Assembly (NCBI RefSeq): GCF_002105155.1
Contig: NW_019028981.1
Location: 1,674,001-1,732,855, forward strand
Direction: 5' to 3'
DNA length: 58,855 bases
DNA from: Lobosporangium transversale
Lineage: Eukaryota
The number at the start of each line of letters is the position of its first letter. Within the stretch, counting starts at the first letter, position 1. The notes under the pieces were generated by a model. It searched no databases and had not been told where the DNA came from. It was given only the letters and a program-made list of their open reading frames with translations. Shown here piece by piece: positions 25,101 through 56,886 of this stretch. A program made the position numbers and the translations under genes.

Positions 25101-25391
25101 TAGTCACAGTCTACTGGGAAAGAATAAAGCATCACCACCTGAGAGCATCAGGACTATGCAGCTGGGCAGCACAAACGAAACAGAGGTGATTTCTTTGGAT
25201 CTGCCCAAAGACGACGACGAGCAGCTGACGTGAAAGCGATCATGGTAGAAGCAGATCACGGAATAGGAGAGTGATCGAGATTGACAGTGACAGGACGACT
25301 GGAAGAATATCGCTTTTATACAGTCCAACTTTAATTATGAGATGGATGTAACAGGTGATACGTTTCACAATTCATCCATGCCTCTGTCTTA

Positions 25392-30300: not shown

Positions 30301-33300
30301 TGGATATTCGCCAGAACGGCATATTGAATATAGATGCATTGAACGAACTTCCAGCTCTTGAAGAGTTGTTGGTGGACTACAACACAAAGGTTGTCCTCAA
30401 CAATGCATTTGGCGCGCTGGTGCGACTTTCGATTGTGAAATGCAACATGACTGACATCAATCTACGAGGTACCGGCAACACACTTACCTTCCTCGACCTC
30501 TCTTCGAATAAGCTCTCCAACTTGGCTCCAACCTTGTTTGAACACCTAAGATGCTTGGAAATTCTGAAACTTGATCACAATAGTATAAGCTCTATTCCGT
30601 CGACCGTTGGTGCGCTCAAGAAACTTAGAACGCTTTCAGTTGCGTATAATAATCTCTCTAGTATACCCGATGACATCGCACAGCTTCACTCCCTTATTGA
30701 TCTGGACGTTCGTAGTAATAGTCTTGGAGAGCTCCCCGGAGCTATCTGGAAATGTTCACTCAAGTATCTCAACGCGTCTTCCAACATTCTTGAGTCTTTT
30801 CCAGATCCACCAGGAAACTATAGTCTTAAAGCGGGCGATGAGTCACTCATTACAGCATCATCATCATCAATAACATCATACGATATGGAGCCTGTCGCGC
30901 CTGTCCATTTTCAAGGTCCATCCCCCATCAGTCGCTCCGACCATATCCCCCCACTGGTAACCACACTGGAAACACTGTGTTTGGCTGATAATCGGCTGCC
31001 AGACGATGTTTTCTATCCCCTATCGCGTCTTTGTGCCTTGAAGATTTTAAATTTAAGTCATAATTTTATTGCTGAGATCCCTCGAGGCCAAATACCAAAC
31101 ACAGGTAACATCCAGGAGCTATATTTGAGTGGAAATCAACTCACTAACCTACCTGCGGATGACATCGAGTCGATGCGCAATCTTCAGGTATTGCATGTCA
31201 GCGGAAACAAGCTCACGACGCTCCCTGCAGAGTTGGGAAAGATCAATCGTCTTAAGGTGCTCGATGTTGGCTGTAATATGTTGAAGTACAACATCTTAAA
31301 TTGGCCGTATGACTGGAACTGGTAAGAAAACACATTCGTGATTAAAATGGTTGGTAACACAGTATTCACTTAGAAGAGCTTACAAAGTGTATATTATTAT
31401 CTAATACTATTATCAGGAATTGGAATCTTGAACTCAAGTACCTGAATATGTCTGGAAATAAGCGCCTTCAAATTAAACGGCAGGCAGCTGAAACGATACC
31501 GACAGCATCTCGCCCAGGAAATTTGTCTGAATTCAGTAACCTTACTTGTCTTCGAATTCTTGGATTAATGGATGTTACTATCACAGATAATGTCCCAGAT
31601 GATACCGTAGATAAACGAGTCAGAACATCGACATCCACTCTGCATAATATGTCATATGGTATGGCTGATACTTTAGGCGATGGCGAAAATCTTTGCATTT
31701 GGGATCTTGTTCATCCTAAATTTCAGACTAAGGATGATGAAGTATTATTCGGCCTGTTTGATGGCCGATCTGGAAAGTCTCGATCAAGCTGTCGAATGAC
31801 TAGCCATCTTAAGGATCGGTTCGGCGCGTACTTCAAAATCGAGCTGGAAAAACTAGAAGGTTCTGACACTGTTGTTAGTGCACTTCGGCGCACATTCTTG
31901 GGCCTCGATCGTGAGCTCTGGCCACTTGCTAAAGGGGAAGGTGGCAGGGGAGGAGCTTCTGCACTCGTAGCTTATATCAAAGGAATGACTTTATACACGG
32001 CCAACGTTGGGGACACAATTGCTGTATTAGTCAAGAAATCGGATTCATTTAATGTGATTTCACAAAAGCATATTCCTTGGAACCCAACAGAAGCGGCACG
32101 GATTAAGCGTTCTGGTGGATTTGTTAGCGAAAACGGGCTTTTGAATGACGAGCTAGATATTTCAAGATCGTTTGGACAGTATCATCTTATTCCGATTGTC
32201 AACTCAAACCCATTCATTGAGACCACCACTCTGACGGAGGATGACGATTTTCTGATCATGGCCTCTAAGTCGTTCTGGGATGTCATGTCTTATAATACTG
32301 CAGTGGACATCGCTAAGGCTGGTATGAGGATTTATGGTGACTTGATGCACGCATCTCAAAAGCTGAGGGATATTGCTATTTCGTATGGTGCTCGTGAGCA
32401 TATGGTTGTGATGTTAGTAGGAGTTGGAGATCTATTCAAGAAAAAGGAGCCTTCGGATACTTTGGAATATCACCAGCATAAAAAGAGGCCAAAGCCGACT
32501 GAAGGTCCGATTGATGCCGTAAGTGAAGTCGTCACTTTCATTTGTTAAACCTCCTTTCTTTTTTTCTCAGTGAGCGAGAGTACTCATGGCTTTTACTTGA
32601 ATTATCAAGTTGAAATACTTAAAACCCGAGATAGAGCCTCCACAAGGCGATGTTGCCATGGTTTTCACAGACATCAAGAACTCCTCCAGATTGTGGGAAG
32701 ATATGCCTATTGCCATGGCTATTGCGATTAAGGAGCAGTTTAACATCATGCGACGCCAGCTCCGCTCTATTGGTGGGTACGAGGTCAAAAACGAAGGTGA
32801 CGCTATGATGGCGTCATTTTCGAGTGTGCCAGCTGCCATATTGTGGTGCTTTAAGGTGCAGGAACTACTCATATCCGCAGACTGGCCGCAGGATATTCTA
32901 GATACTGAGGATGGTCAGACAATTTTTAGCGCCTCGGATCCTAATCAACCCATCTATAAAGGGCTTTCTGTTCGTATGGGGATCCATTGGGGACAACCCG
33001 TAAGCCATCGGGATGAAGTGACACGGCGAATGGACTACTATGGGACGATGGTCAACCGTGCGGCTCGAATTTGCGCCTCGGCTGATGGTGGAGAAATATG
33101 TGTCAGCAGTGAAGTAGTTAAGGTGATGCAGAACATACTTTCGGACTCTTCTTTGGAATATTCTGACTTTCCGGATGCTGAGCATGTTCGAGAGATGATG
33201 AAGCTCGGCTACGTAGTGATCGATATTGGTGAAAAGAAGCTAAAAGGGCTAGAAACCCCAGAAAGCCTGCATCTACTCTACACCCGGTTACTCGCTGAGC

Positions 33301-33926
33301 GTTACACAACAGAGGCTAAGAGTGTTGCAGCTACTCCCGTCTTAGGAACTGTAAAATGATATCTATAGTTTGAGACGAACTGCATGTCAAGGTACAATTG
33401 GTAGTCTGGTTCATGCATAGTAATATGCTTTTTTTTTTCTTTTTTTCTTTTTATCATCATAGCAGGAGGTATTGACACAACCGACATGCTTGGATCCGAC
33501 TTCGGTGCGGGTGATACAGAGCATATGCTTACGTCTTGAGCGACTTGTTTCAGGGGCTGTGTCCAAATATGGACGCGCGACGGAGCAAGACCTGGCTTTG
33601 CTCTCGCTAACCATCAGAGATAATGCGGATCAAGATGACCTTAGACGCATTGCTGAGAATTGCATATGGAGGATTGAGGTAAGTTTTTTTTTTTTTATAA
33701 AATCTTCTGCTTTGGCATTTTTTTTGGTCGAAAACTAATCCATACCTTCTTTTTGCTCTTTATTTAGAATTGTTTCTCGCAGTTATACATGGCCAAATCT
33801 GGACAATATGTTGCTGTGTATGATAGACTGACTAAGGTCTTAAAAAATGATCCGAACTACATCTTGCAGGCGCTACAGCAATATGTAAGTATGGTGGGCA
33901 GTATGGGATCTACTGCGCTTTTGTGA
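27342..33926 (+). CDS. CYR1: Fungal adenylate cyclase (Ras-association, LRR, PP2C-like and class III cyclase domains)
   Basis: WHAPESWGV; IRIFRPDTTYTTVNC; many LRRs ending NWPYDWNW; PP2C-like LFGLFDGR; cyclase VFTDIKNSS, GYEVKNEGDA, RMGIHWG, RMDYYGTMVNRAARI. Last exon ends at TGA 33926. Confidence 0.96.
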
Positions 33927-34285: not shown

Positions 34286-36004
34286 ATGTCACGAAGGACA
34301 GTAGTCCATTATGGACCCGATTCGACCTCCAGTTCCACATTTTCGACTAGATCCAATGCTCTGCCTACTACCAGAAGCATAAGTCTTTCTAAACGTGTAG
34401 CCAATCATTCCAACGACATTGTCGCTTACTTCCATGATGAGGAAGTTGGAAACTATCACTATGGGGTATGATCATTTGAAATTAGAAAAGCAAATTGGGA
34501 ATCTTTATGTCTAGGTTATTAGCCTTGGTTTTGTGAATTTATCATTGAAACCATGGTACGCTTCTGATGGATGATAGGAGCGGCATCCAATGAAGCCACA
34601 TCGACTTACTTTGACTAACCATCTGGTGATAGCGTACGATCTACACAAGAAAATGGAAGTTTTTCAGCCTCGTAGGGCAACGGATGAGGAGATCATGGAC
34701 TTTCATGCCCCAGATTACATCGATTTTTTAAAAAGGTTGGTTTGGTTTTGAAACTGCTTTTTTTTTTTTGCTTTATGAAGCATAGCCACTGACAGACAAT
34801 GTTTTTATTTAATGAAATTCAGGGTCACACCAGAAAACATGAATAATTTCAGTAAAGTTTTTAGTCGTTATAATGTCGGGGATGACTGTCCTGTTTTTGA
34901 CGGCATGTTTGACTTTTGCAAGATCTACTCTGGCGCGACTATGGATGCGGCCCGCAAGTTGACTAATGGCTCTGCTGATATCAGTATCAACTGGTCTGGA
35001 GGTTTGCATCATGCTAAGCGGGTTGAGGCATCAGGCTTTTGTTATGTTAATGATATTGTTCTGGGGATCTTCGAATTACTTAGGTGAGTATCATTCTTGG
35101 GAGTAGATGTGTTGTCCGCATCTGAGGGCCATCAATAGTGAACCCAGCTATTTTAATTATTAAACTAATAACTAGACATTACCCTCGAGTTCTCTATGTT
35201 GACATCGACATTCACCATGGGGACGGAGTGCAGGAGGCGTTTTACGCGACGGATCGAGTCATGACGGTTTCTTTTCATAAATACAATGGTGACTTCTTTC
35301 CGGGAACTGGAGACATCGACGAGATTGGAAGCGGGATCGGGAAGCATTATTCACTGAATGTGCCACTCAAAGATGGTATTGACGATGACTCCTACATTTA
35401 TTTATTCAAGTCGGTGATGGAAGCAGTTATCAATTCATTCAGGCCTTCCGCGATCGTCCTACAGTGTGGCGCAGATTCGCTAGGATGCGATCGACTAGGA
35501 TGCTTCAACTTATCTATAAAGGCGCACGGAGAATGTGTTCGATTCATAAAGGACTTTAAGTTACCGCTATTAGTGCTTGGTGGAGGAGGATACACGATTC
35601 GAAATGTGGCAAGGTGCTGGGCTTATGAGACATCCATTTTAGTGGACCATGAAGTCTCAAATGACTTGCCATACCATGAGTACATCGATTATTTTCAACC
35701 AGATTACAAGCTTCATCCACATCTTTCTGGAAAAGTAGAAAACATGAATACCAAGCAATATATTCGGAACCTTAGGATCAAAGTTCTGGAGCACCTCAGG
35801 TTTTTAAATGGTGCACCCAGTGTTCAGATGCAAGAAATACCTCCAGATATTCAAGGATTCCTGGAAATGAATGACGAAGAAGAGGCAGAGCTGCTGGCTG
35901 ACTCTGCTAAGGGAAAAGAAGAAAAGGAACAACAGCGTACACGCGATCACCAAAATGAGTTCTTCGATAGCGAGCGTGACATCGACATGGAGGACGAGAG
36001 CTAG
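34286..36004 (+). CDS. HOS2: Class I histone deacetylase Hos2/HDAC3-like (4 exons)
   Basis: [78 protein letters not shown]. Confidence 0.95.
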
Positions 36005-36685
36005 CGCTTCAAAAAAAATAAAATAAAAATAAAAAAATAAAAATCATTTCTTTATTAATACTGTTATTAAATGAAGACAATGAATTTGCGTATTTACTTC
36101 AGAGAGCGTGAGGATCGGATTCTTTGCAATGGTTAGGTAGTCTCACCCAAAAAGATATCCATCACTCTTGTCTTCAACTAAAACCTATCTTTACAGCACT
36201 CTATTCACATTATGACCGCCATTTTCAAGGTGCTACTGTAATGGCTCACAGCATACTAAAGAGAGATATCTTAATAAACGGACTAATAATATATTCATCA
36301 TCTTATTCACTGTATACTTCTCGTCTATCCAAAACTTCCTTGGATACTGCCTTTTTTATGGGCAATTTTTACTGTCATATTCGTATATATAATGCTAATA
36401 CTACTAGTAAGGGTCATTAGCACCTATAGCGTATGCTTGACCGGCCAATCTCAACAATGCAAACAAGGATAATATCAGAGTGGCTGACGAGGGATTTCTT
36501 CAGACGCCAAGCTCCTGCTGCATTGGGATAACACTCAGTCTCCTGATATTGAAGTAGACATATCCAATCAAAACATTCTATCAGTGGACTGCATGTCTAC
36601 TCCGGTCAACATGTGGCTTATGGATCCGTAATAACAAACTCATCTATTCCTCAATCCCTTTGTCACCTTTCAGCAATACTTTGTC

Positions 36686-37477
36686 ATGCTTCGCACTATC
36701 CATCGATTAGGATTAGTTTCCAATGGGAGGTTTTGGGCTCAGCAATCGCCCATGACTGGAACTCATGTAGGCAGGATGTCGGTCGCATTCTTTCATACTG
36801 GCAGTCGCCCTAACTCACTGACAGGCTCTCCCAATGTTGCCACAACACCATCAAAACCACTACCTCCTCCCATGGTTGCCACTTCAATGCAAAGCAAGAT
36901 TGGACCCTCTTTACAAACACAACAATCATCAGTAATACCACCAGCTGAGATAAACATAGACAATGAGCTGGAGACAGAAGGTGTTGAAGATAGGCACATG
37001 TCGTCTGCGTTCGCTGAGTTTGTCCCTGTGTTACCAGAATTAGCCCGCTCGATGGACGATAATCCAATTCTCAAACAACTTGTCAATACGATTATGAAAG
37101 ACGGAAAGAAAGCTCGTGCACAACGCTTTGTGGCAGATACACTACTAGAAATTCGATCTAGAACTCAATCGGATCCTTATCAAGTGATCTTGGATGCGCT
37201 TGAGTTGGCTAGTCCTATTCTGAAATTGACGCCAATTAAGAAAGGTTCTAAGGTATTGCAGGTCCCTAATCCGATGACAGAGAGGCAAAGACGTAGGAAG
37301 GCAATCGTATGGATTTTAGAGGCCAGTGACAAACGAAAAGGCGAGAAGAAGTTCAAGGATAGGCTGGCCAGTGAATTTTTGGCTGTGGTAAACGGTAACA
37401 GCGGAGCATTGATCAAGAAAAATCAACAACATAAAATGGCGTTGGCCAACAGGGCTAATGCATCATTGAAATATTAA
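36686..37477 (+). CDS. RSM7: Mitochondrial ribosomal protein uS7m
   Basis: Presequence-like start; LVNTIMKDGKKARA, QRRRKAIVWIL, QQHKMALANRAN. Confidence 0.93.
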   Translation: MLRTIHRLGLVSNGRFWAQQSPMTGTHVGRMSVAFFHTGSRPNSLTGSPNVATTPSKPLPPPMVATSMQSKIGPSLQTQQSSVIPPAEINIDNELETEGVEDRHMSSAFAEFVPVLPELARSMDDNPILKQLVNTIMKDGKKARAQRFVADTLLEIRSRTQSDPYQVILDALELASPILKLTPIKKGSKVLQVPNPMTERQRRRKAIVWILEASDKRKGEKKFKDRLASEFLAVVNGNSGALIKKNQQHKMALANRANASLKY

Positions 37478-37638
37478 AAATCTGCAATTTTAGAAAACAG
37501 CTCACATGTATTTTTCATGAACTGTCTACTAATGAAACTGAAAGTGGATGATGTTTCACACAGTCATTCATCACACCATTCTCTCTTCTTCCTCCTCTCG
37601 CTCCGCTTGTACTTCGTGTGTTTATTATTACTATAACG

Positions 37639-40600
37639 ATGTCTGATCCATCTCCACCTCCATCAACAGCGCCGCCTGTTCAGCGCACACGCGCCAGCTC
37701 TTATCACTCTGTACCCTTGTCCTACCAATCAACTAACCCATCTTCATCTTTCATCAACTCCATCTCATTGCTTGACCCTTCCACAAATGGCTCTCGAAGC
37801 ATCTCCGCCTCTCCGCAGAGGTGCTCCATGCCACTCCTACCTGCGCTCTCAACATCTATCCGTGCATCCTCATCCGCTTTAAACATGAAGCCAGCATCAC
37901 TTTCAGGAGCATCATTGTCAGCAGGAAGGAACTCTGTAGATATCAACTCACATGGTAGTCGCACAACTACCTCCGTAAAGTTCAATAGCTCAGAAATTGA
38001 GCGAAGTTTTCAGGCTTTGCTAAAGAAGCAACCTATTGCGGCTCCAGGGCCCTCATTACTGCACGGTAAAGGCCATCGACAGTCGTCTCAACACTCTGAA
38101 TCTCGTCTTGGCTCGAAACACCATGATAGGTTGTCTAGTAATAACGGCAGTAGCAACTTCGGCAGCAGTTTGTCACATTCTCCTGTGTTTGGATCACCAG
38201 CGTCTGAGCACGCCAAGAACTGGATCAAGACTGTGGGTCTGGATCAGCCTAGTGAATCGGATAGCGACCAGCGCGAGAGTGACGCTGACAACTGCGAAGA
38301 TAGTGAGCAACTTCGGTGGCAAACTGACCATGATGATGATACGGCAAATCAGGTCGAGCTTGAAACAGAAACAGAGGTTGCAAGGTTACCAATAAGTACA
38401 CGGCTATCCTTCAGCTCCAAAAAAGGATATCCTATGTTCAGTGAAACTGGTAGGACATTGTGAACTGTGCAATCGTGTCTACTATCTGCTTTATTATTAG
38501 ACTATCCAACTAATGAGCTTATTCTGTTCATCAGCTACATATCAGTCACCTGTTCGTGCCAAAGACCAGTCCGCTATACACCCACTTTCACCTATACCGC
38601 CTTCACCCCGTTCAGAAACATCTACACCAAAGCCGTCTCAATTAATGTCACCAAAAATGCGGCCTAGTGTGTTTGATTCTGGATCGATACCTCCAATAAC
38701 CTCTAAGACCGTCAACCAGCCTCTTCCGCCTCCTCCTGAACCCACCACAGCATTGCCTGACAGACCTCGTGCACGAACAAAGGTCACTCCTCATGTTCAG
38801 CCCCCAAAAAAGTCTTTCAAAAATAGTCCTTTGCCTCCGAAACCCGTATCTGTTACGGAAAGACAGCCTGTGTCCTTAAGCAATCCACCGCGCAAATGTA
38901 TACATCATGGCAAGATTTTGCAGGTTATCAACACATCAACAGTCAAGGATCGATACCTCTTCTTGTTTAGCGATATTCTATTGATTACCAAGCATATGTC
39001 AGAGGGTCACCCTACAATTGATAGTCGTTTTCAAGTTAAAGAAGTCATTGAATTGAAGAAGATTAGCCTCAGTCTCACTCGTGACAAATACGACTCCAAG
39101 AATGGGGAAGCTGGCCCTCATGGCAATCGCAAGATCCCTCCTATCCTTGCAGAGTTCATCCATACTTTTGATCAGGACCCAAATCGTGCCATTAAGAGCT
39201 TTATTCAAAAACGTGCTCTACATTCTGACCATATTTCTGTGGCACATCTCCTGTTTAAGACACCAGAGCTATCAAAGAGTCAGCTGGCTCTTTTCCTTTC
39301 TGATCCAGCGAATAAGCATGTCTACCGAGCGTTTCTGGATCAATGTCAATTTGCAGGAGTCTTGCTGGACGAGGCTCTTAGGACACTGCTAAGCCGGCTT
39401 AGCCTCCCAGACAGGGTGAGTGTGCCTCGTAGTGGAGGCTCTACGGATCGCTCTAATAGATGTGTGGGTTATTTGCTGGAGGAATTTACTAAACGCTGGT
39501 ATGAAGCGAACATCAACGTGGTTGTGTTTGATGCTTCGATTGCCCATAAGCTCGTCATTGCCATGATCGTACTCAATGCTCAGCTCCACAACAACGAAGG
39601 CGCTAGTCTCGTAAAAGATAGAGATGAGGTTGGAATACTTGTTCGACCTCGGGCAGATTCTCATCCTTCTACACCTACAGTAAATTCAACGCCAACAATG
39701 GACTCAAGTCTTGTTTCAACATCGCGAATAACGCAGAAATGCCAGTTAATGGACTTGGATGATCTTACGGTTTTTCCGAAGCCAACAAAAGATTCTTTTG
39801 TTGAGAACTTCCAGCTGCTAGACCAACAACGAATCGTCCCTCGGGACACCCTTCACAACATCTTTCTATCTATCAGCCATCAGCCTCTGGACATCGATTC
39901 TGAAAAATTGGATGATCATCCGGGGAACTCAAGCTCGATACCGTCGAGCTCGCGAAAGCTCTGGCCTATTATGATGTCACCTGTTGTCTTACCGCCAAGG
40001 TTGACACTCAAAGTTCCATCAGACTCTATTACTATTACCATACCGGTGTTAAACCCACATTTTTCAATTCATTTGGGAGGGAGAGACTTGAAATGTGAGC
40101 CCTCAATTCTCGAATTTGGGTCACATCGTAGTCAACAGTTTAGGATTATAGGTTCGGTGCCCGGGAAAAAAACCTTGACCATTCAACCAAAGATCACAGC
40201 GGAGAAAGGGACACCTGAACAGTACTATGACTTACATAATCTGCCGTCCAAGCATGTGATCGCAATTGAGCGTCAATTTATGCGACATACCTTCCAGATC
40301 TCATTGCTAAATGATCTAGGAACAAGACGACGTTACCTATTTGGAGCTTCTACGGGCGTTGAAAAAGACGAGTGGGCGAGAGCCTTGACAGAATGTCTGC
40401 TCCTCGTAAAAGGGCAAAACGCAGTACGATTGAATGAGCACACAGGGTTGGAGCAATCAATTGGGCTACAGATTTTAAGAGAACAACTGCTAGGCGTTGA
40501 GGTCCCTGAGGATGGTGACGTGGTACCAGTACCATCCAATGTACAATCCGGCCCACCACAAATGCCTGTAGCGGTCGTGCCACCGCAGACCATGGGCTTG

Positions 40601-41233
40601 GGAATCCCATTGGATGGTCATACTCTGCCAGTGACGTCTCCTCGGTCGGGTGGATCGAATACAGCAACAGTGACTATTAATGCAGGAACTTCCAGTCCCT
40701 CCCTCGGCGCGGGCATGAGTACAGACTGGGCAGGTGTACACAGCAACAGTATTTCTAATTCACCAAACGACACTTGGATGTGTAAGATGCCAAAGCCAGG
40801 ATCTGTCATCCCAGACAGATATGGCTGGGAGCTTGTCCATCTTGTGGAGCAAAATAGTTTAATGGCTCTTGTACTTGGATTTATGGGCGCATTAGGGCGC
40901 GATCGGCTTCGGCGTATAGAGGAGCTACGTAAGAAGATGGAAAAAGAAGAGGAAGAAGAGTGGGAGGAGGAGATAGTGGAGGTGGAAGATGATGAAGAAG
41001 AAGAAGAAGAAGAAGATCAGATACAAAGGGAAGAACAAGAAGGACAAGAAATAGATGAACGAGACATGGAAGAGGGTGAAAGATACGTCCCATCGTCTTC
41101 TATTAGTCATTATGAAAATTCTAACCAGAGAGCGACTACTGCCTCTATGGACGAAGATCTTGAAGACGGTGTTATCTCTGAAGCATTAGGGGATATGAGC
41201 AGTTTTAAAGGCGAGGGGATTTGGACTCAGTAA
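37639..41233 (+). CDS. Split-PH / Sec7-like domain protein with acidic tail (2 exons)
   Basis: Exons 37639-38449 and 38535-41233 join in frame. PH N-half KDRYLFLFSDILLITK; Sec7 helices LFKTPELSKSQLALFL and FAGVLLDEALRTLL; PH C-half RRYLFGASTGVEKDEWARAL. Confidence 0.8.
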
Positions 41234-41335
41234 TTAGTTTACATCCTACGTCAAGCATACTTATACAAGTTTTGCACATTATGATTGTATTTTGGTAGCC
41301 TAATAAAAAGTTTAATCCAGTAAACTATAACTCAT

Positions 41336-41815
41336 TTAACGGTCCTCAGCCCATTCATTCTCCTTCTTAATCTGTGCTTCTTCCTCAGGCGTAAAATCGT
41401 TAACGATGTTGAAGGCCTTCCGGATTTGCTCGGGAGTTTTGCCTTTAATGATGTTAGCAACGGTTTTGCAACCAACATCAAGCAATGGCTTAATATCCAA
41501 GTAATTGGCAGCCAAAATTATCTCGAACAACATCTCCTGATCGACTTGCATAAACTTCATGTCCCACTCTTCGATATCGTTTGAACGCTTGCGGGGGTCG
41601 TCTGTCTCATCTGAAACTTGAATAGGATCGTTACGATGATGCTCGCAGTACTCGATGACTTTAGTTAACACTGCAGCCGTGACGTTAGGGAGAGGGATGG
41701 GTGCGTCGGACTCCCCGACATCCTCAAGCATGTTCTTGATCAAGATCGAACGTTCGGCCACCTCCTTGTCGATTTTGAACTCCTGGCCGTCAGAGGAAAC
41801 GAGAATCACAGACAT
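41336..41815 (-). CDS. SKP1: SCF adaptor Skp1, intronless, 159 aa
   Basis: [67 protein letters not shown]. Confidence 0.97.
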
Positions 41816-42027
41816 GATGGCAATTTTAAATATTTTGAAGAAAGAGATGAATATGCAATTTTTTATTTCGTGTGGCCACATGTCCAAAAAAAAAAAAAAA
41901 AAAAAAAAACACAGCCACATTTTATCTAAATCCGCCTTGTACAGCACCAAAAACTGTTCAGGTCATGTGTCACGTCTACAGAACAAAAAGTGATGGCCAG
42001 TGCATGGCATGGCACTTATTACGACCT

Positions 42028-45735: not shown

Positions 45736-48700
45736 ATGGCATCTTCCATGAGTAACCTTCTCGCTATTGATTTTAAACGGACAGAGCCACTCTCAATGAC
45801 AAAGAGTCTTAGCGACTATATCTCCACATCCTATGCGGAGCATCCAGATATCTACCAGGATGACTTTCGTGTCCTTGATGAGCTTAGAGCTGATATCGTC
45901 AACCTTGAGCCTCACCTTAATGCTCTCAACCGCCTGTTAAAGTGGGTCTTATGCTGCTCGATTCATCTACATCTTTAATTATAATCAACAACAGCTTAGC
46001 ATTGACGCTATTTTTGCTTTACTATGTCGCAATAGGTACCATGCACAGCTTGTGTTTATCAGTTCCAAATTTCCTATTGATGTGAGTTATAAACTATTAA
46101 TCCTCTTGATGAGTGGCCACATTTTCAATTATAGGTCAATTGACCTGCTTATCAATAAATTATCGTGATGTTTTTAGACAGGTGTTGAATTCTCCTGGGC
46201 ACTCGTCAACAGTACCGACAAAAAGATGTGTAAGGAGAAGCCGGTTCTTTACAAAAAAGTAAATGTATTGCGTTCAGTAGACGATACAAAGTAGTGCCTA
46301 GAATCTTACAGTTCTTGTCCAATGCACCTATCTGGAATTACAGACTCCTTCAGAAACATGTATTACGAACGAGCATGCATTTGCTTCAACATCGGGGCTA
46401 TGTATAGTCAGCTCGGCAACAATGAGAATAGAAGCACAGTCGAAGGACTAAAGCGTGCTTGTTCCTATTTCCAAGTACGATACGGGGTTCCCGTCGAGAA
46501 ATTTCGAGCGTTACTATCTGTTGATCTTCCTGTCAATACAACGATAACGTATTTATTTTTTTATTTTTTATTTTTATTCTTTTTTAGAATTCCGCAGGAA
46601 CATTTCAACATTTACGGGATACGATTATTCCAGAACTGAGGATTGCTCCAACTGTCGATATCTCCACAGCCTCCCTGACAGTTTATATCCAACTTATGCT
46701 TGCACAGGCACAAGAATGTTTCTGGCAGAAAGGCGCATTAGGTAAAACCTTTGGTCCAGTTGATGTTCTTCTAGTTGACCGCCAATCACCGGCCCATTAA
46801 ACTGTGGAGGCCTTTGCTACAACTTATATATATGTTTCATGAAGAATAGATCAGATTAAGGATGGGCTAATCGCTAAACTAGCAGCCAAAGTTGCTGATT
46901 ACTATACAGCAGCAAACGAAGGGGCAACCCATTCAAGTGTTTCCTCCCTATTCACTACACCATGGACAAGCCAAATGCAGGCCAAGGCTTTTCATTTTAA
47001 CGCTGTATCTCAGTACAGAAAGTCATGCGAATGCATATCTCAAAATAAATATGGCGAGGAAATTGCGCGACTTCAGATTGCTGAACGGCTTGTTAGCTCA
47101 GGACTCGATCTACAGAGGAACCTCAGGGAAACGGTCGTAAGCGATCTACGTTCGTTGCAATCCGCCATTCATCGTAACCTCTCGAGGGCAGAGAAAGATA
47201 ATGACATCATTTATTTGGAACCTATTCCTGCAGAGACCGCACTGGCGTCAATTGGGCGTGTGGATATGAGCAAGGCAACTATCATTCCAGAAATATCAAA
47301 CCCTGTTCCACTAATGAATGAGCATAATATATTGTTGGGTGTCCCATTGTTCTCGAGACTGGTTCCGTTTGCAGTCCATCAAGCAGCGAGTGTTTATACA
47401 GAGCGCAAGGAGAGGCTCGTGAAAGAAGACATTGGAGGAAAGTTTGATGAATTGACAGGTATTTTTTATAGGTATGTGAAGCGAAGATGCTAGACCTAGT
47501 CCTCATATTTGACAAGTTGGAGCAAAAGATAGATCTAATTGGTATATTCATTACTCAATTTTAGTCAAATGCAAGCGCTAAATCTGCCCGGAGCTCTTCA
47601 AGCACTTGAGCAGCCCATCGGATTGCCGCCCTCTCTTCTGTCCCATATTGATGAAATACATGCTGAAGGGGGTACCCGAACGCTAAATGAAATGGTTCAG
47701 ACTGTTCGGACTCTTTCACATCAAAATGCAGCCATATTAGATGAAATCTTTGGAGCATTACAGCAAGAAGCTGATGAAGACGAAGCAATGAGGCGAAAGT
47801 TCCAAGGACGTTGGAACCGCCCTACATCAGCGTCTCTGACAGTTAACCTCGTGGAACAGGGGAAGAGGTACAGAGACACCCTTGAAACTGCTAAAAAAAG
47901 CGATCAGATTGTTAGAAATAAAATGGAGGCGCTAATGACAACATGGGGGCGCTCATTGGAGCTGCTCGGCAGTGGTAGGGTGAGTATGCTTTTTTCCCGA
48001 CGTTTTCATTGTGAGCCAATCATCTGATTTATATTCACTTACACTTGCTATGGTTGCTGATGCATCACAATAGGTTGAAGTGGAACGCGCTGTGCCTAAT
48101 ACAATTAATGCGCCGGGCTCTTCAGATCCCGAAATTGTATACGACTTGAAGATGTTGTTAGAAGAGGCTGATCAGATGATCAAGGCGCGAAGGATTAAAT
48201 TAGATGAGGTCAAGAGGATTGCGGATGAGGACGATATAGGCCCATCTTTAGTGGCTATTACTAATAAGTTAACAGCCAACTCATCTGCAGTCAAAATTGA
48301 ACCTGCTCATTTTGAAGCGCATTTTCAGGAGCAACTCAAAAAGTACGACGGATATAAGGCGCTAGTTAAAGAGGAAACAGCTGCACAAGAGGATCTTTTG
48401 ATGGCTATCCAGGTATTAAACAATTGGCTATACATCATCGACAATCTCCAGAGATGGCGCTTTATTATATCTACTTATATCACATCTTTATTTTATTTTT
48501 ATTCTTATTTTTATTTTTATTTTGAATCATTAGGAAATAAATAAGGCTTTTGTCGCATCCAGAAAAAGTAGCCCAGTTGTACATCAACGAGAGAAAGCTC
48601 TTCAAAATCTGGAAGCAGCATATCAAAAGTATAAGGCAATACTGCTGAACCTCAAGGAAGGAATGCAGGTATTGATAATCATTATGTTGTATAGTATGTT

Positions 48701-49452
48701 CTCTCTACAAATTAATCTGCACTCAGTAATCAAGCTAAATTTCATTCCGTTGGCTATAGTTCCATCGCGATTTTGAAAAGATTTTAGTACGCCTGCGCGA
48801 TAACTGCCGCGATTATCTTCTCGCCCGCGAGATGGAAGCCAAAGATTATTTGAGGTAAACAAGAGCTTCTATTTTACACAAACGGTAACTTCAATCAAAG
48901 TAGGAGCAAGGTTTTTTTCGTTGTCCTGAATTGCCATTTCCTGTCAATGATAGTGAGGTGACCGCTGGAATATCATCCATCAATTTAAATCGCTCACAGC
49001 CGCAAAGCCCTGTGCACGGTTCTCCTTATGATGTAGCCAGCGCGCCTCCTCAATCCTATGATTTTCAACCTGGGTCCGGGAAGTGGAGTCCAAGTCTTGG
49101 TGTACATTTTGGTGGTCAAGCACCCACTTTACCCCCGGAAGTAACGCAGGGGCAAATCGGGTCGTTTAGTCATAACAGCGCTACATTCAGTCCCTATGAA
49201 GATGCACCGGTGGGTCCGCCATCTCAACCGCAGCCAAATTTTGCACAACATCTTCGGCAACAGTTTCAGCAAAAGCAGCCATCTTCCTTTCAAGGTACAT
49301 CATCACCACAACAACGGCAACAACAGCAGCAACAGCAACAGCAACAAGCTCCGCCGTCTTATCAATCCTTGCCCGGAAATAACAATGCTCCTACACCAGG
49401 CGTATGGGACCCTAGTAAAGGCTTGTTTTTCGGAGGAAAGCCCAAGAATTAA
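45736..49452 (+). CDS. RIM20: BRO1/V-domain protein Rim20/PalA (ALIX family)
   Basis: [11 protein letters not shown]...[73 protein letters not shown]; Pro/Gln-rich tail ending [12 protein letters not shown]. Confidence 0.9.
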
Positions 49453-49512
49453 AGTCAACATATAAATAAAAATAAAATAAAGAAAACCCCTCAATGTTTT
49501 TAATAGAAACCA

Positions 49513-50180
49513 TTACTCGTCGCTCAATATTTGTTGTCTAAGCCATGTGGTTTCTTCGACCACCCAGTCGTTGTTACTATGTGGTCCCTCTATAGCACTA
49601 ACTTCTTGAAATCCTTGATTTATCTTGAGGCTGGCCATTGAGTTGAGGTATTTGCCTGTATTAACATGCTGCAGCCAAAATACATCTTTCCATTGCAGAA
49701 AAGGCGAGAGTGGTTTCTTGATATCGGGCTCTGGTCGAGTGACGATCCAATCATTGTTACTGTCGTGGTATCGGTATCCAGTAACCTCGTTATGATCTTG
49801 GTGATTAAGAGATCGATGATTGTGCGAATGGAGATAGAGTGTAGTCGAAGGTGTAGTCTTGTAGATCATGGTATGATACTGGCAAAGCGATGGGGGATCG
49901 ATAAATTTCATTTTGTCTGCCTCGTCGATATCGTCAGGAGCAGTGATCTGAACAGAAGGCATACCATACGACACTTCAGATAATGCCAGACGAGATAGTG
50001 AATGTGAGCCACATGCGCATGGGTATGACATATCTTGCTCTATCTTGATCCATTTGACATTATGATCTAAATGATCTGAAGCTTGACGACATCTTAAGCA
50101 AAGATATGGTGGGGCCATACCATCTTGTGGAGGGTAGCAATCACTAATAGAAACAACATGGGAACAAAAGAGGGATAAGT

Positions 50181-50212
<32 letters not shown>

Positions 50213-52049
50213 TAGAAAGAGTAATAATTATTACTATCATTATTTCGGAAATAAAAAGTATTACCTGCAAATTGCAACCCATTCACCAGCACTCGCAGTA
50301 TAAAGGCATCTGTGAACGATGTTCGTTCCACCAGCCCGCTCGTGCCGCTCACAATGTGTAGCAAAGCGAAACGCGCTATTCTCACCACATCCACATCGCG
50401 TAGTTTCAAATCCAATCGAGGCATACAATCGCAGATAACTGTGGCCCTGATGGGCTTCTTTGATAAAACAAGACTCGCAAAATACTCTTCCAGGATCTGT
50501 CTGACATGTCTTTATAGTTGCATTAAACATTTTTTTTTTCTTAGTTAGTACCGATAGTGCTGTCAAAAGTTATAAAAAAAAGCCAGAACATACAACTAAT
50601 AAATTTTACATACCTTGCATTGGTAGTAGTGCATACCTTCCTTTATATCCGTAACACAAAGCACAGTCTGTCGATTATGATCGTCTTTGCAATCTGTACT
50701 ATTAATATTGGCTTGTGTAGGTGGCTGTCTTAGGATACTTGGGTCACCACAGTGACAGTATAGACCTTCATTATGCTTATTGATCCCTTCCTCAATCTCA
50801 TGGCCAATGTGGTCTTCAGATTTAAAGCAACGAGTACAAATCCATATGTCTGATGTTGCAGTAGGCAAGCTAGACTGATGTTCATCCTCTGAGTCATCCG
50901 TTGGGATCGAATCCAGCATTAAAGAAGGATTTGTGATGTGCTCGCTATCAACAACATGACAAGTTCGACAGCGCCACATACTCTCATGACGCTCAAAGAG
51001 ATAATTGCAATGACTGAGACTTGGAACAGGTCGGAATTCCTGTGGTAAATGATAGTTGCAGTCAAACGCAGTCTTAAACATGGTTGGATCACCACAATCG
51101 CATGATACATGATAAACTGCCTCATCTTGTAGCTCTTCCTCATTACTTTCATTATTCTCACTTTCTGGTAATTCTTGCTCCAGTGTCTCATCCGATGGGT
51201 AACAGGGCGAGTCTACAGTGTTCATGGTTATACCTATTTCAGCTTGTTCGCCTTCGGCAGGGACCTCGTGGGTTGACTCTTCAGCAGCGATCTCACGAGT
51301 CGACTCTTCAGCGGGGATCCCGCGAGTCAACTCAGAACTGGTCCTTGGTTTGACATCGGGCTGCTGGAAGACACCCATCCTCCAACGATGTTTCACGCAT
51401 CGTGAGTTGTGAAAGCATCGCCCACATAATACCACCATACTATTGAAACTGCAGTCTTTACAGTGATAGATATCTTCGCCAGGCTTGAATATATGTCCGC
51501 ATCGTTGTGATTCTAATGATGCTTTGGCTACTTCTGATACAGCTTTAGGTGGAAGTGAGGGTGAAGTCTGATCATCGGTGGTAGAGTGAACCAGAGCTGG
51601 AGAAGAGGGGGAAGACGATGATGAAGCAGCCTCTTGCTCAGGTGGTAAAGGTTTCCATGGTGATTTAGAAGGTGAAGGTAGCCTGATAGACCTTGGAAGA
51701 TATTCGCTCTCGAGAACACCAGGGCTATGGTATGCACAACGCAAATCGAATTTCCAGAACTTTCCATCACAGCAGCTGCAACTGGAGCCGTCTCTTGCAA
51801 GTTGAGCTATAAAATCATGGCCAAAGTGGTTGTGCTAAGGATATTGTACCACATATCGTAGAAAGAACCATAGATCAGAGCGTGTATTCAATCATTACGG
51901 AAAACTAAGCATAGGCTGTAAACAGGATCTAGGACTTACAGAGCGGAAACATCGAACGCAGAGTACCGCATCATCGTTGGCATTGGTAGCGCACGACTAT
52001 CACAAAGGGTTGAATAATGTCAATCAATATCATTCATCCATTCATTCAT

Positions 52050-52082
<33 letters not shown>

Positions 52083-55000
52083 TGCTTACCTTGCATCGAT
52101 ACACTTTTTCACCCGCCTTAAATTTGATCTGACATGGTTTGCCCTTTGTATGGCCTGAATAAGATTTTTGACTTTCCGCAGAGTGCAATGAACAGTGAAG
52201 CATCCGTCTCATTTTTAACCTGGAAGGATCGCTACAGACGCAGACAGATGTCCCCCAAGAGCACTGCAAGTACATCGTATGATCAGCATGATCCGAAGCT
52301 TGTTATTTCATCATTCAAATCGAATACATGTTAATAACAGCATCTTTGTTTTTTGAAGCATGTTTATCGAGTCATCAAAAAGTTAAGAGATATAAACGGC
52401 CCTACCTCGGAAACATCTCATGCAAAGAACATCAGCTGGGCAGGTCTTACAAATAACATAAGTTTCACCATATGGGACAATATGTCGACATGGGGCTCCT
52501 TGCGCTCGTGGTAGATACTCTGGCATTTCTATTTTAGTATTCCTAGTAGAAAACCAATATGAAATAATCCAGACACGGTCACCATATTTGACCTTCCAAT
52601 CTTTACGGGTGCGGATTATATCCTTTGCAGGGAGGATAATCCATTTTGAAGCAGTATACGTCTTGCTATCACAGGCAACTATACCAAGCAATTTGCCACG
52701 AAGCAAGCACATACCGTAAGTCGATTTTCAAGATGGAAAACAAAAACAAGAAAGTGAAATAGATAGCTGAGATATTGGTTTTCCTTAAAACATACCTACA
52801 TTCTGGCGAGATGATCCTTCGTGGGAATATAGCCAATTCCAGATCCAGGCATATTGCAATGTATTGGCATGTAGCATGTGAATTGTCCATCCGAACTGGA
52901 CGACTGTGCTATTGGCGTGCTCTTTTTGATCGCTTGACATTGAACCATCTACGTTGCCGGTACTGCTGGAAGACTCTATGCCAGCACTACCCAACTCTTT
53001 ATCTTGCCTAACAAACATACAAATAAACAAATATAAAAAACAGGAGAGAAATGGTAAAACTTCTACAAATTCATCATATAGAAGTCAGTATCATGACAAA
53101 GAAGACTTGAAGGCCCATAACTTACGAGTCTTTGTCATTGTCTTCCAATTTGGACCGCCTCTTAGCCATCATAATCTCAGCGATCTGTTGTTCAAGCTCT
53201 GTCGGAGCATGCTCATTCTGCTGTAGTGATTGTGCTGTCGCGCTTCTCGATATGCTAGTGCTAGTACTATTAATGTCCACATTTCCATTTACTGATGCTA
53301 AAGCCTGAATGCTGGTGCTCTTCCCGTTCAGTGTATCAGTTAAAACATCTGCGCTGCTTGCACTACCTGCCCCAGCAATATTACCAATGCTTCCATTCAT
53401 AAGGACGAGAGACTGACGTGTTGAAGAGGAGATAGAAGAACATCGCTTCAAATGAGATGAAAGAGTGACTGGAGATGTGGGTAAAGCTGAGTTTGGAGCA
53501 GTATTAGCAACCGATTGTAGGAAGATGACAGATTCAGCTTGTTGCATCTCATCCAAGTTTTCTAGAATAGAAAGGGCTTCCGCGCTAGGTATGCACGTCT
53601 CAAGATAGTTTCTGCGAACTTGATCAACGGCTTGTAAAAAGTCAGAATAGTCCTTGGGAGTGACACAGGAGGAAAAATGTATACAAGACAGTAAGTGTAA
53701 GCGTTGCATGCCATTTATAAATGGTTACGTTGGTGTGGTTGATATCTTCGAGAATGTGAATAGGATTGTTAATACCTTAATATCGGGTGAAGATCTCAGC
53801 GTTAGAGGTGACACTGTAGCTGAAGCTAAACTACTGCTATTTCGCTGATTGCCTAATAGACGGTTCTTGAATACTTGCCAATGTTCATCTAAAGTAACCA
53901 TATGATGGTTCTGCAGTGCCGAAGCATTTGCGTTATAATATTCCAGATAAAGCCCTCCTGTGGGAACCATCATCTCTAAAGCCGATGTTGCTCCAACAAG
54001 GTTTGCATCCGTTGCAGCTGCAGACTTTCCTGAAGCATGGTCTGTGATAGTGGTTTTGAGACAATGAGTCCGAAAATCACCAAGCAACTTGGGTAGGTAA
54101 TACTCGAAACCAAGATAATAGCGCCTTTCGATTTCTTCTAATGATCTAGATTGAGCATCGTGATGGAGCATTGCAAGAGTGTGCCAAGGTAATGGGATGG
54201 GTTGTCGGTCCAGATGCTCGTTCATGATACGGTGGTATGTATGTGCTCCATTGTATAATGCACGTTCACGAATGGCATCGCGTGCGGCTTGCTGCAGGTC
54301 GGACAGATTTAGTGGTGCTGAACATCCATTTAACTGAGTCAAGTATGTCTGGAGCTTGGCATAGAGTACAGCACCTAAATTAATATAATATTGAAATGGT
54401 TACAAGGATCTTCATCATAAACTCGAATATGATTTTTACTCTTTTGGATAACTCAAGGACATACCACTTGTAGCCTTCTGGCTCTCTGTTAAAGTGCTTT
54501 GATTATCCGGCCGCTGTTTGCTACGGCCCGTGAGCTCATGAAACCAGGAGCTGTCAATATGAGCCTCATTACTTTTTTTTGTGTCAGTCACTGTCAAATC
54601 CTTTAGATCTCGCATGAGGACAGCCTCGATTGATTGTTCGTTCATTTTAGATCGCCTTTTACGAATACTTCCTCCAGCCCTGTTATTAATCTTCGATGAC
54701 GCTGGTGAGGGACAACACTTGATGGACCTAAAAAACTGCTCGAGCACTGCAACTTGCGCTGCAATATCTTCGCTTTCAATAGACATTACGCCGGTGGACT
54801 TTCTAGCATCGCTGATATACATCTCGAGTGTAGCAGCTCCACGAGCATGTCCATGATCGCTCTTGGCTTTTGAATTTGATATTGCTCTATTAACAGGATC
54901 GCTCCAACGCCAATTCAGGCTTGGCAAGTCGAAAGGCGGGTAGTGACGTTGCGTCGTCTGCAATGTGAGTAACGACCGCGCTAGTCGGGCCAAATCCCCT

Positions 55001-55677
55001 TCGGTATCGTAGATCGTGGGCGATACAATGTTCAACTGGTTTGAGAAGAGGGCAAGTATAGGTTCAAGAATCCCATGGAGTGGAAATGAGAAAGCGCTGT
55101 TCTCCGTCGTACTATCATATAATGTATTAGGACTGATGCTGTTATCATGTCGGTATATTACGTAGAGTGTATGAACCGGGTGACTAGATGATACAGAATC
55201 CATTGTACTTGTTGGTGATGATAGCCAAGCCCAGATGCCACCACCGAGAAGCCTAATATCTGTTGTTGATGTTGTCGATGTTGTCTCCGTGTCATTGGTC
55301 TGTTCCTGTTCATTATTTGTATCGCTACTGTATGAATTTCTGATAACTGACGCAGATGCTGCTGCTGTTGCTGCTGCATCACATAGAGCATCCTGAATTG
55401 ATCTGTGATACGAAACTATTTAAATACATATACACATCAGAGTTAGTGTTATTGAGTCTTTGCATTACTACATTTAGTTTTATGCTTCATAAATATGAGA
55501 AAAAAGTCTGTTATTGGTGTGCCTACAGAATGACACAACAGTCAGAGGTTCAGCTAGGTTCTCGAGAATTGCTCGTGTAGCCTCAGGAATATCAAAGACC
55601 CACGGAGAAGAACTGGGTGAGGGAGTAGAAGGCACAGGAGAGCGTCGAATTTTAGCCAGTTGGAAGAATAGAGCCAT
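49513..55677 (-). CDS. Multidomain protein: GBP-like pseudo-GTPase + helical domain + MIR beta-trefoil with six inserted UBR-box zinc fingers (about 1691 aa)
   Basis: Eleven GT-AG exons: 55677-55527, 55415-54465, 54374-53776, 53652-53126, 53007-52796, 52678-52406, 52298-52090, 51996-51940, 51834-50614, 50509-50265, 50143-49513. Total 5076 nt and every junction phase is consistent. Confidence 0.82.
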
Positions 55678-55990
55678 TGCTGTAGAACACAAGGAGTTTT
55701 AGTGAATCGGTAAAGACGACGATACTTGGTGAAGGTGCGGTTGCAGTAAGATAAGAGTGGACATTCGCACGCGCACACGCACGCAAGTGATCCGATTCAA
55801 TGGGCTGAGAGAAAAAGAGAAGAGAGAAAAGTTAAGAGCAGGGGAATTCAAAAGACAAACTAGCGTTCAAGCGTTCGAGTGAAAGATGATGGAGGAGAGA
55901 ATGAGAGAATGTCCATGGCTTTTGAGATGTGATCTTTGTACAACCCCTGTGCCCTTTTGTGGAAGGGCATGGTACATGTATAAATATATA

Positions 55991-56246
55991 CAGTGGAATC
56001 TCGATAATTGTACACTTTTGTACAAATTTCAAATTTGATATATTTCTAGGCCATTGGTTGGCTAAGAGCCTTACTCTTTTAAAAAAAAGTATTCTAAAAA
56101 ACCCACACTCAACTGGAGTAGAGGAATCAGCAGAGGATTTTTAGAATAGTTTTTCATGAATTGTGGGCTTCTTAGCCAATCAATAACCGAGAAATATAGC
56201 AAATTCGAAAATTGTACAAAAGTGTACAATTATCGAGATTCCACTG
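55991..56246. mobile_element. Tc1/mariner(pogo)-type MITE, 256 bp, TA target-site duplication
   Basis: Perfect 35-bp terminal inverted repeat CAGTGGAATCTCGATAATTGTACACTTTTGTACAA, imperfect pairing to about 110 bp, TA on both flanks. Confidence 0.92.
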
Positions 56247-56886
56247 TATAAAATATTCATGTATTGCTCAAATTATTCGACAGTTTAAACATGCATGTTT
56301 TGTTAGACTACCAGCCCAGTGGTCATTATCAAATCATTTTGCAAGAAAGAAACTTTGTCCTTTTTTACTTGTCTCCAATCCCGCCCTGCGTCCTGTCTCC
56401 TCTGGACATTGACAGTGGTCCATGTGAAACGGAGTTGTTCTCGGGGACTATTTTTTAATTTGGTATGTCCGTTAGGCACAGATCGGGGAGGTTCAGTAAC
56501 AAAAGAATGTACATGATTCGACCGGCTCTGAGACATGTCAACAATAAGGAATAAATTTTAAAATAAAGAATCAATTCATTCGATGGGACATTTATTACCT
56601 TTCCATGTATTGCCCCACCACTTCAAGAATGCGACGGCGACTGACACAGCTTGCAGCAACCTACTCTAGCATAGATCCTGGTATCGCCTGGACAGAATAT
56701 AATTTTAGGAACCCAGGCAACGTTGTATGTGCCGTAAGAATCGCGGTGGATTACCAATACTTCAGGTGGTGTTGGTGGAGGAAACTTAACCACTCTGATT
56801 TATTACATGTACATGTACTATCGCGGACGACACATTATCTAATGCCCACTGTATAGTGCACGGGCCTTGTACCATTCATTATATTG

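What the first reader, a model, noticed from the sequence alone, without database searches (positions are those of the whole stretch)
49513..55677. One gene fusing a GBP-like GTPase fold, a MIR beta-trefoil and six UBR boxes
Seen: the ORF track shows about ten unrelated fragments, but canonical splicing joins them into one 5076-nt frame. The critical GBP-to-MIR join is TC|G across 53125-53008. Order: GBP-like globular domain, GBP-like helical region (TYLTQLNGCSAP...LAMLHHDAQSRSLEEI), low-complexity linker, MIR, six UBR boxes, MIR. Established: GBPs are membrane-coating immune GTPases, UBR boxes read N-terminal degrons, and MIR trefoils bind ligands in PMT, SDF2 and IP3R. No RING or HECT domain is visible. 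Inference: a multivalent N-terminus sensor or scaffold, possibly for non-self recognition or protein quality control. I know of no described protein with this architecture.
Basis: partly seen in the sequence, partly recalled or inferred. Interest (0 to 1): 0.92.

Follow-up and report, generated by a model that had tools for sequence, protein, structure and literature searches.

The report
Six-UBR-box adaptor on a dead GBP
A soil-fungus family (Mortierellaceae) keeps one spliced gene that joins a GBP-type GTPase fold lacking its P-loop motif to six UBR zinc fingers, which likely sit inside one split MIR domain; it likely works as a non-enzymatic, many-handed protein-binding adaptor, not as the ubiquitin ligase that databases label it.

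Summary
Real. The 11-exon, 5076-nt frame rebuilds exactly. One spliced RNA contig spans all ten introns, including the 53126/53007 join. The 1691-aa product equals RefSeq XP_021885760.1 (Lobosporangium transversale; 'hypothetical', auto-labelled E3). Twenty long orthologues come from Mortierellaceae genera; no outside relative of the N-half was found.

(1) The N-half has the GBP/atlastin fold by predicted structure (Foldseek E 7e-6; top 10 of 48,161 chains), but no Pfam GBP hit and no Walker A in 16 of 16 sequences. It is a likely pseudo-GTPase.
(2) The two 'MIR' pieces add up to three motifs, so probably one trefoil with all six UBR boxes inserted. This rests on sequence; AlphaFold did not build it.
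(3) All six boxes keep 11 zinc ligands, but only box 3 keeps the Asp150 that grips a substrate's N-terminal amino group.

No RING or HECT. Best reading: a cytosolic adaptor with diversified zinc-finger pockets, working like multi-ZZ Nbr1, docked through an SMG8-like dead G domain. The function is inferred. Six literature searches found no description.

The parts
49513..55677 (-). Whole gene: 11 exons, 5076-nt CDS, 1691 aa (= XP_021885760.1)
54472..55677 (-). GBP/atlastin-type G-like domain (aa 1-365); P-loop position (55548-55387, across intron 1) lacks Walker A; fastest-evolving folded part (median 30% identity)
53500..54471 (-). Helical stalk, GBP_C-like (aa 366-618; median 55% identity)
   Evidence: one search is a lead only
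52908..53499 (-). Low-complexity linker (aa 619-776) with one conserved helix at about aa 716-735; holds the TC|G join at intron 53125-53008
52545..52907 (-). MIR-like motif 1 plus first strand of motif 2 (aa 777-858; median 77% identity); inferred N-part of a split trefoil
52183..52490 (-). UBR box 1 (aa 877-943); Asp150 position is Val/Ala
51727..52134 (-). UBR box 2 (aa 960-1029); Asp150 position is Ser
51049..51501 (-). UBR box 3 (aa 1105-1255) with an acidic insertion of about 80 aa; the only box with Asp150 and Asp153 equivalents (Asp1239, Asp1242)
50677..51009 (-). UBR box 4 (aa 1269-1379) with insertions; Asp150 position is His/Arg
50342..50658 (-). UBR box 5 (aa 1386-1456); Asp150 position is Gly
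49873..50308 (-). UBR box 6 (aa 1468-1572); lacks both pocket aspartates; its last Cys/His pair lies just before the MIR C-part
49546..49857 (-). Rest of MIR motif 2 (LHSH fingerprint at 49833-49822) and MIR motif 3 (aa 1578-1681; median 80% identity)

Best explanation
This is one spliced Mortierellaceae gene whose 1691-aa product joins a GBP-type fold without a Walker A motif to six zinc-ligand-complete UBR boxes and MIR motifs with no ligase domain, and it likely acts as a cytosolic, non-enzymatic adaptor that binds several different proteins at once. SHOWN: one reading frame and transcript contig; conservation across nine genera; six full zinc-ligand sets; Asp150 kept only in box 3; no Walker A, RING, HECT, CaaX or strongly hydrophobic segment. 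PREDICTED: GBP/atlastin G domain plus stalk fold. INFERRED: the two MIR pieces close into one trefoil with the six boxes looped out of motif 2. Box 3 binds Arg/Lys N-termini as in UBR1/2, while the other five, each with its own conserved substitution, bind other ligands or protein surfaces. The dead G domain and stalk dock the adaptor on a partner, as SMG8 does on SMG9. Any ubiquitination or vacuolar delivery of bound clients would be supplied in trans.
For: Single transcript contig. Stalk and MIR N-part lie in one predicted protein in 20 of 20 orthologues; G domain through MIR C-part in 8 of 20. Fold: all 6 Foldseek hits at E<=1e-3 are GBP5/GBP1; the top 10 of 48,161 chains are GBP, atlastin, RNF112, Sey1 and SMG8/9. 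No Walker A in 16 of 16 P-loop segments. 1036 of 1051 ligand cells are Cys/His. The Asp150 position is Asp only in box 3 (13 of 19 rows); it is Asp in 0 of 11, 0 of 19, 0 of 19, 0 of 12 and 0 of 14 rows in the other boxes. Asp150 binds the amino group (PMC10687169, passages). Box 3 folds as one box across its insertion (Ubr1 Z 8.6, rmsd 2.8, 76 aligned). Window 780-830 is the best match to MIR motif 3 among 1519 windows (17.3; mean -26, SD 7.7). Precedents: SMG8 (PMC5473137), Nbr1 (bioRxiv 2021.02.07.430097), non-binding UBR6 box (PMC5606531).
Against: No partner, substrate or localisation was observed. The N-half model is weak (mean pLDDT 48; whole-chain rmsd 15-25 A). Sequence profiles reach GBP only at E 0.015-1.9 or not at all. 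Motif 1 versus motif 3 is weak by hhalign (E 0.1). Box 3's Asp150 equivalent is Gly in 6 of 19 rows, so even that site is not universal. No conserved Atg8-binding-type motif passed my filter, which weakens the autophagy-receptor version. The MIR pieces and box 1, not box 3, are the most conserved parts. RNA support is one run, as an assembled contig.
Confidence: 0.45

Rival explanations
1. Multivalent N-terminus sensor on an immune-type GBP coat: all six boxes read N-degrons and the GBP part assembles on membranes.
For: Six intact UBR1/2/3-type zinc sets; Asp/Glu at the Asp153 position in boxes 1-5; best fold match is GBP1/5.
Against: Asp150 equivalent absent from 5 of 6 boxes. No Walker A in 16 of 16 sequences; no CaaX in 14 of 14 C-termini.
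Confidence: 0.2
2. The MIR trefoil is the real ligand sensor (sugar, glycopeptide or small molecule); the UBR boxes and dead G domain are mainly structural or relay modules.
For: MIR pieces are among the most conserved parts (median 77% and 80%). Motif 2 keeps LHSH (LHS 13 of 13, second His 10 of 13) and the downstream Tyr/Asp/Asn with the spacing of the Pmt2 site (PMC7759382 passages).
Against: No signal peptide or membrane segment is evident, so it is unlikely to meet O-mannosylated ER clients. High conservation is also expected if two halves must re-pair. Six retained UBR boxes would be unexplained.
Confidence: 0.2
3. It is an N-recognin E3 ubiquitin ligase in its own right, as the UniRef label says.
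For: Database labels; UBR boxes.
Against: Only zf-UBR, MIR and one noise hit at Pfam E<=10; no RING or HECT in 20 of 20 orthologues at E<=0.05. The six ligand sets account for the conserved Cys/His of aa 870-1580 apart from a few extras.
Confidence: 0.07
4. The fusion is an annotation artefact of two adjacent genes.
For: One other assembly's annotation splits it into 911 aa + 758 aa; many database homologues are partial.
Against: That split reads through the intron 6 donor and is not at the GBP/MIR join. One RNA contig spans all joints with no listed alternative. The join is intact in 20 of 20 long orthologues.
Confidence: 0.02

Closest known systems
UBR-box N-recognins (UBR1/UBR2, yeast Ubr1, plant PRT6)
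   Same: Six boxes with the 11-ligand pattern and the final His of the UBR1/2/3 subfamily (PMC10687169); box 3 matches the Ubr1 fold.
   Different: Six boxes where these proteins have one (single box recalled); no RING; Asp150 kept in one box only.
Guanylate-binding proteins GBP1/2/5; atlastin, RNF112, Sey1
   Same: Predicted G-domain-plus-stalk fold; best structural matches.
   Different: No Walker A, no CaaX, no Pfam GBP hit, 11-14% identity to GBP chains; C-terminal MIR/UBR array.
SMG8 (of SMG8-SMG9)
   Same: Dynamin-like G fold with stalk that lacks G motifs and serves for docking (PMC5473137); SMG8/9 chains are in the top 10.
   Different: GBP scores higher than SMG8/9; no SMG9-like partner identified; orthology not shown.
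MIR beta-trefoil of SDF2, PMT and IP3R/RyR
   Same: C-part matches SDF2-like 3MAL (E 3.9e-6) and PMT MIR domains; LHSH fingerprint; N-part weakly matches the IP3R trefoil family in two orthologues (E 5.4e-4 and 0.018).
   Different: Interrupted by about 720 residues holding six zinc fingers; probably cytosolic.
Fission-yeast Nbr1 (multi-ZZ cargo receptor)
   Same: Working analogy: tandem zinc fingers with different clients and no catalytic domain (bioRxiv 2021.02.07.430097, abstract and section 7).
   Different: UBR rather than ZZ fingers; no FW domain; no conserved Atg8-binding motif found. Not a member.

Membership tests
GBP/atlastin (GB1/RHD3) fold | G domain with helical stalk | tested here: met
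   Predicted model: Foldseek E 7.2e-6; VIA Z 10.8 to GBP1, Z 8.6 with rmsd 4.6 over 163 residues to the GBP2 G domain; model pLDDT 48
GBP GTPases | G1 Walker A GxxxxGK[ST] | tested here: not met
   0 of 16 P-loop segments; none in the first 620 aa of 53 proteins
GBP GTPases | Pfam GBP / GBP_C profile match | tested here: not met
   None at E<=10 for the query; none in 20 + 15 homologues
GBP GTPases | GTP binding and hydrolysis | not testable with these tools
   Needs biochemistry
UBR box domain | Eleven Cys/His zinc ligands | tested here: met
   6 of 6 boxes; 1036 of 1051 aligned cells
Type-1 N-recognin UBR box | Asp150-equivalent that binds the alpha-amino group | tested here: not met
   Met in box 3 only (13 of 19 rows); absent in boxes 1, 2, 4, 5, 6 (mapping)
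UBR E3 ligases | RING, HECT or F-box domain in the same chain | tested here: not met
MIR beta-trefoil | Three MIR-type motifs in sequence | tested here: met
   Motifs 2 and 3 by PDB and Pfam; motif 1 by window control and weak Pfam; hhalign weak
MIR beta-trefoil | The separated pieces fold into one trefoil | tested here: inconclusive
   AlphaFold left these parts at pLDDT about 30-65; no MIR match listed
Nbr1-type autophagy receptors | ZZ and FW domains | tested here: not met
   No FW hit; ZZ only as sub-threshold overlap on UBR boxes

The most novel reading that the evidence does not exclude
A ligase-free class of N-recognin: one MIR trefoil split by, and displaying, six UBR boxes that have each evolved a different pocket. 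It would form a combinatorial reader of protein ends beyond the known Arg/N-degron code, anchored by a catalytically dead GBP that pairs with a partner GTPase or complex.
Probability: 0.3. Interest if true: 0.85.

Novelty: new variant of a known kind. Interest (0 to 1): 0.62.

Why it matters
Characterised UBR-box proteins carry one box beside ligase machinery (recalled). Here six boxes with different conserved pockets sit in one chain without a ligase domain. That makes a natural panel for asking what non-canonical UBR boxes bind, an open point for boxes such as UBR6's. It also adds a fungal GBP-fold pseudo-GTPase that Pfam misses, a probable 720-residue insertion inside a beta-trefoil, and a correction to the 'E3 ligase' label that databases give this family.

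Tried and rejected
Split-trefoil fold test: AlphaFold on aa 776-1691 with 27 rows did not build a confident trefoil, and neither fold search listed a MIR chain. This is no verdict.

Sequence profiles to GBP: Pfam none; PDB profile E 0.087, 0.015, none and 1.9. An N-half profile against 1.84 billion representatives gave 31 hits; those I inspected are orthologues or their fragments. Atlas feature hits to GBP, RHD3 and SMG8 scored below 0.9 and are leads only.

MIR N-part alone found no MIR chain in PDB. NCBIfam gave nothing. A ubiquitin-interacting reading of helix 716-735 was dropped: the Ala and Ser of that motif (recalled) are not conserved. No conserved Atg8-binding-type motif passed the filter.

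No whole genome is held for this window, so copy number and the presence of a separate canonical UBR1 were not checked. No RNA holder is on record as RNA; X1 is a guess, though its intron-free contig behaves as cDNA. Earlier scan findings: none.

Paper searches with no relevant hit: 'UBR box'+'Mortierella' 0; GBP/fungi/UBR/MIR 6 unrelated listings; GBP/atlastin/RHD3/fungi/pseudo-GTPase 0; 'Mortierellaceae'+'guanylate-binding' 0; 'multiple UBR boxes' 0; UBR/tandem/fungal/MIR/GTPase 0. The library lacks most subscription papers; no supplements were read.
Full report
Gene structure. The ORF track shows fragments only. Introns are 19-38% GC against 42-54% for the ten exons measured, and each contains stops if retained. 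A public run that the tool guesses is RNA (X1) holds one 5298-nt contig from 49487 to 55873 with no mismatches in the listed pieces. It skips 9 of the 10 model introns as listed CT..AC joints, including 53125-53008. The tenth, beside a poly-A run, has zero depth and fits the record coordinates. The contig length equals CDS plus 196 and 26 flanking bases. This is one run and an assembled contig, not a long read, and it may not be independent of the public gene model.

Identity and range. The product is identical to XP_021885760.1 of Lobosporangium transversale, named 'hypothetical' by NCBI and 'E3 ubiquitin-protein ligase' by UniRef. Another assembly's annotation splits it at intron 6, not at the GBP/MIR join. 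A full-length search gave 21 hits: 20 orthologues from eight further genus names, all Mortierellaceae, and one protein matching only through a UBR box. The stalk and the first MIR piece share one predicted chain in 20 of 20; G domain through last MIR piece in 8 of 20; all six boxes complete as well in 3 of 20. The rest are partial or appear to skip exons. An N-half profile against 1.84 billion representatives returned 31 hits. These have no names; those inspected are orthologues or fragments.

N-terminal half. Pfam finds no GBP family in the query at E<=10 or in the homologues scanned. Alignment profiles reach GBP5 only at E 0.015-1.9, and not at all with one alignment. An AlphaFold model of aa 1-911 (database protein P0001, identical over aa 1-904) is weak overall, mean pLDDT 48. 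Even so, all 6 Foldseek hits at E<=1e-3 are GBP5 or GBP1 (best 7.2e-6). The top 10 of 48,161 chains are GBP1, GBP2, atlastins, RNF112, Sey1 and SMG8/9 (Z 10.8-7.3; GBP2 G domain Z 8.6, rmsd 4.6, 163 residues). At the P-loop position 0 of 16 sequences have a Walker A, none of 14 C-termini has a CaaX end, and the highest 19-residue hydropathy in the query is 1.24. The G domain is the least conserved folded part (median 30%). I read it as a pseudo-GTPase; loss of activity is inferred. SMG8 is the precedent: a GBP-like G domain with stalk that lacks G motifs and binds no nucleotide (PMC5473137, passages).

UBR boxes. There are six complete 11-ligand sets; boxes 3, 4 and 6 carry insertions, which is why Pfam counts 7 stretches. 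1036 of 1051 aligned ligand cells are Cys or His. Box 3 folds as one unit across its acidic insert (Ubr1 Z 8.6, rmsd 2.8). In UBR2, Asp150 binds the ligand's amino group and Asp153 the arginine side chain (PMC10687169, passages). Mapped through the alignments to human UBR1/2, the Asp150 position is Val/Ala, Ser, Asp, His/Arg, Gly and Ala in boxes 1-6. It is Asp only in box 3, in 13 of 19 rows (Gly in 6). The Asp153 position stays acidic in boxes 1-5. The UBR6 box shows that an intact zinc fold need not bind N-degrons (PMC5606531, abstract and passages). So the boxes look diversified, not six copies of one sensor.

MIR. The C-terminal piece matches SDF2-like and PMT MIR domains over about 100 residues, starting mid-motif; a MIR domain has three motifs (PMC7759382, passages). 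Residues 780-830 are the best match to motif 3 among 1519 windows of the protein (17.3 against mean -26, SD 7.7; next separate peak 1.0), and best in 13 of 16 rows at coarser steps. Two orthologues match the IP3R trefoil family weakly there (E 5.4e-4 and 0.018, both below cut-off). hhalign support is weak (E 0.1). Residues 842-855 look like the missing first strand of motif 2 (by eye). The pieces thus sum to one trefoil with the six boxes inserted in motif 2. Both pieces are strongly conserved (77% and 80%), and motif 2 keeps LHSH and the Tyr/Asp/Asn of the PMT ligand site. AlphaFold did not assemble the trefoil, so the split-domain reading remains an inference, about 70% in my judgement.

Mechanism. 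With no Walker A, RING or HECT, the chain has binding modules only. The best reading is a cytosolic adaptor: box 3 takes basic N-termini, the other boxes take other ligands, the trefoil holds them together, and the dead G domain with its stalk docks on a partner, with downstream activity in trans. Fission-yeast Nbr1, whose three ZZ fingers bind different cargos, is the closest working analogy (bioRxiv 2021.02.07.430097, abstract and section 7). It is not a relative, and I found no conserved Atg8-type motif. Every functional step is inferred. Rivals are a true six-site N-terminus sensor (0.2), a MIR-centred ligand sensor (0.2), an E3 (0.07) and an artefact (0.02).

Novelty. The gene model is public but unnamed or mislabelled. 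All parts are known folds; the arrangement, the six-fold UBR array and the dead GBP appear new. I rate it a new variant of a known kind, interest 0.62.

Noticed in passing
window 55987-56250: 264-nt element with 81-nt terminal inverted repeats (91% complementary) about 310 nt upstream of the ATG, MITE-like; several other contigs of run X1 match it with loose ends, suggesting more copies.
   Followed up: partly
window ~46843-49452 (+): Convergent BRO1/ALIX-family gene (PalA/Rim20-like, name recalled) whose last frame ends 60 nt from this gene's stop; the two RNA contigs meet at 49487, so the 3' ends probably overlap.
   Followed up: partly
window 53653, 52299, 50510: Three of the ten introns end in AAG, and the RNA contig supports all three.
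   Followed up: yes
window ~53150-53210 (-), aa 716-735: Isolated, well-conserved helix in the low-complexity linker, present in 20 of 21 aligned sequences; probable binding motif, partner unknown.
   Followed up: partly
window 29700-33359 (+): LRR + PP2C + cyclase domains: ordinary fungal adenylate cyclase.
   Followed up: no
window 13507-14595 (-), 25359-27221 (+), 35126-41962: Housekeeping neighbours: Ufd2 core, F-box protein, histone deacetylase, ribosomal S7, Sec7/PH protein, Skp1. No sign of a functional cluster.
   Followed up: no
P0012, P0014, P0018 (Linnemannia and related): This group has diverged in the MIR C-part (about 50-55% identity, second His of LHSH lost), and Gly replaces box 3's pocket Asp in the same rows.
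   Followed up: partly
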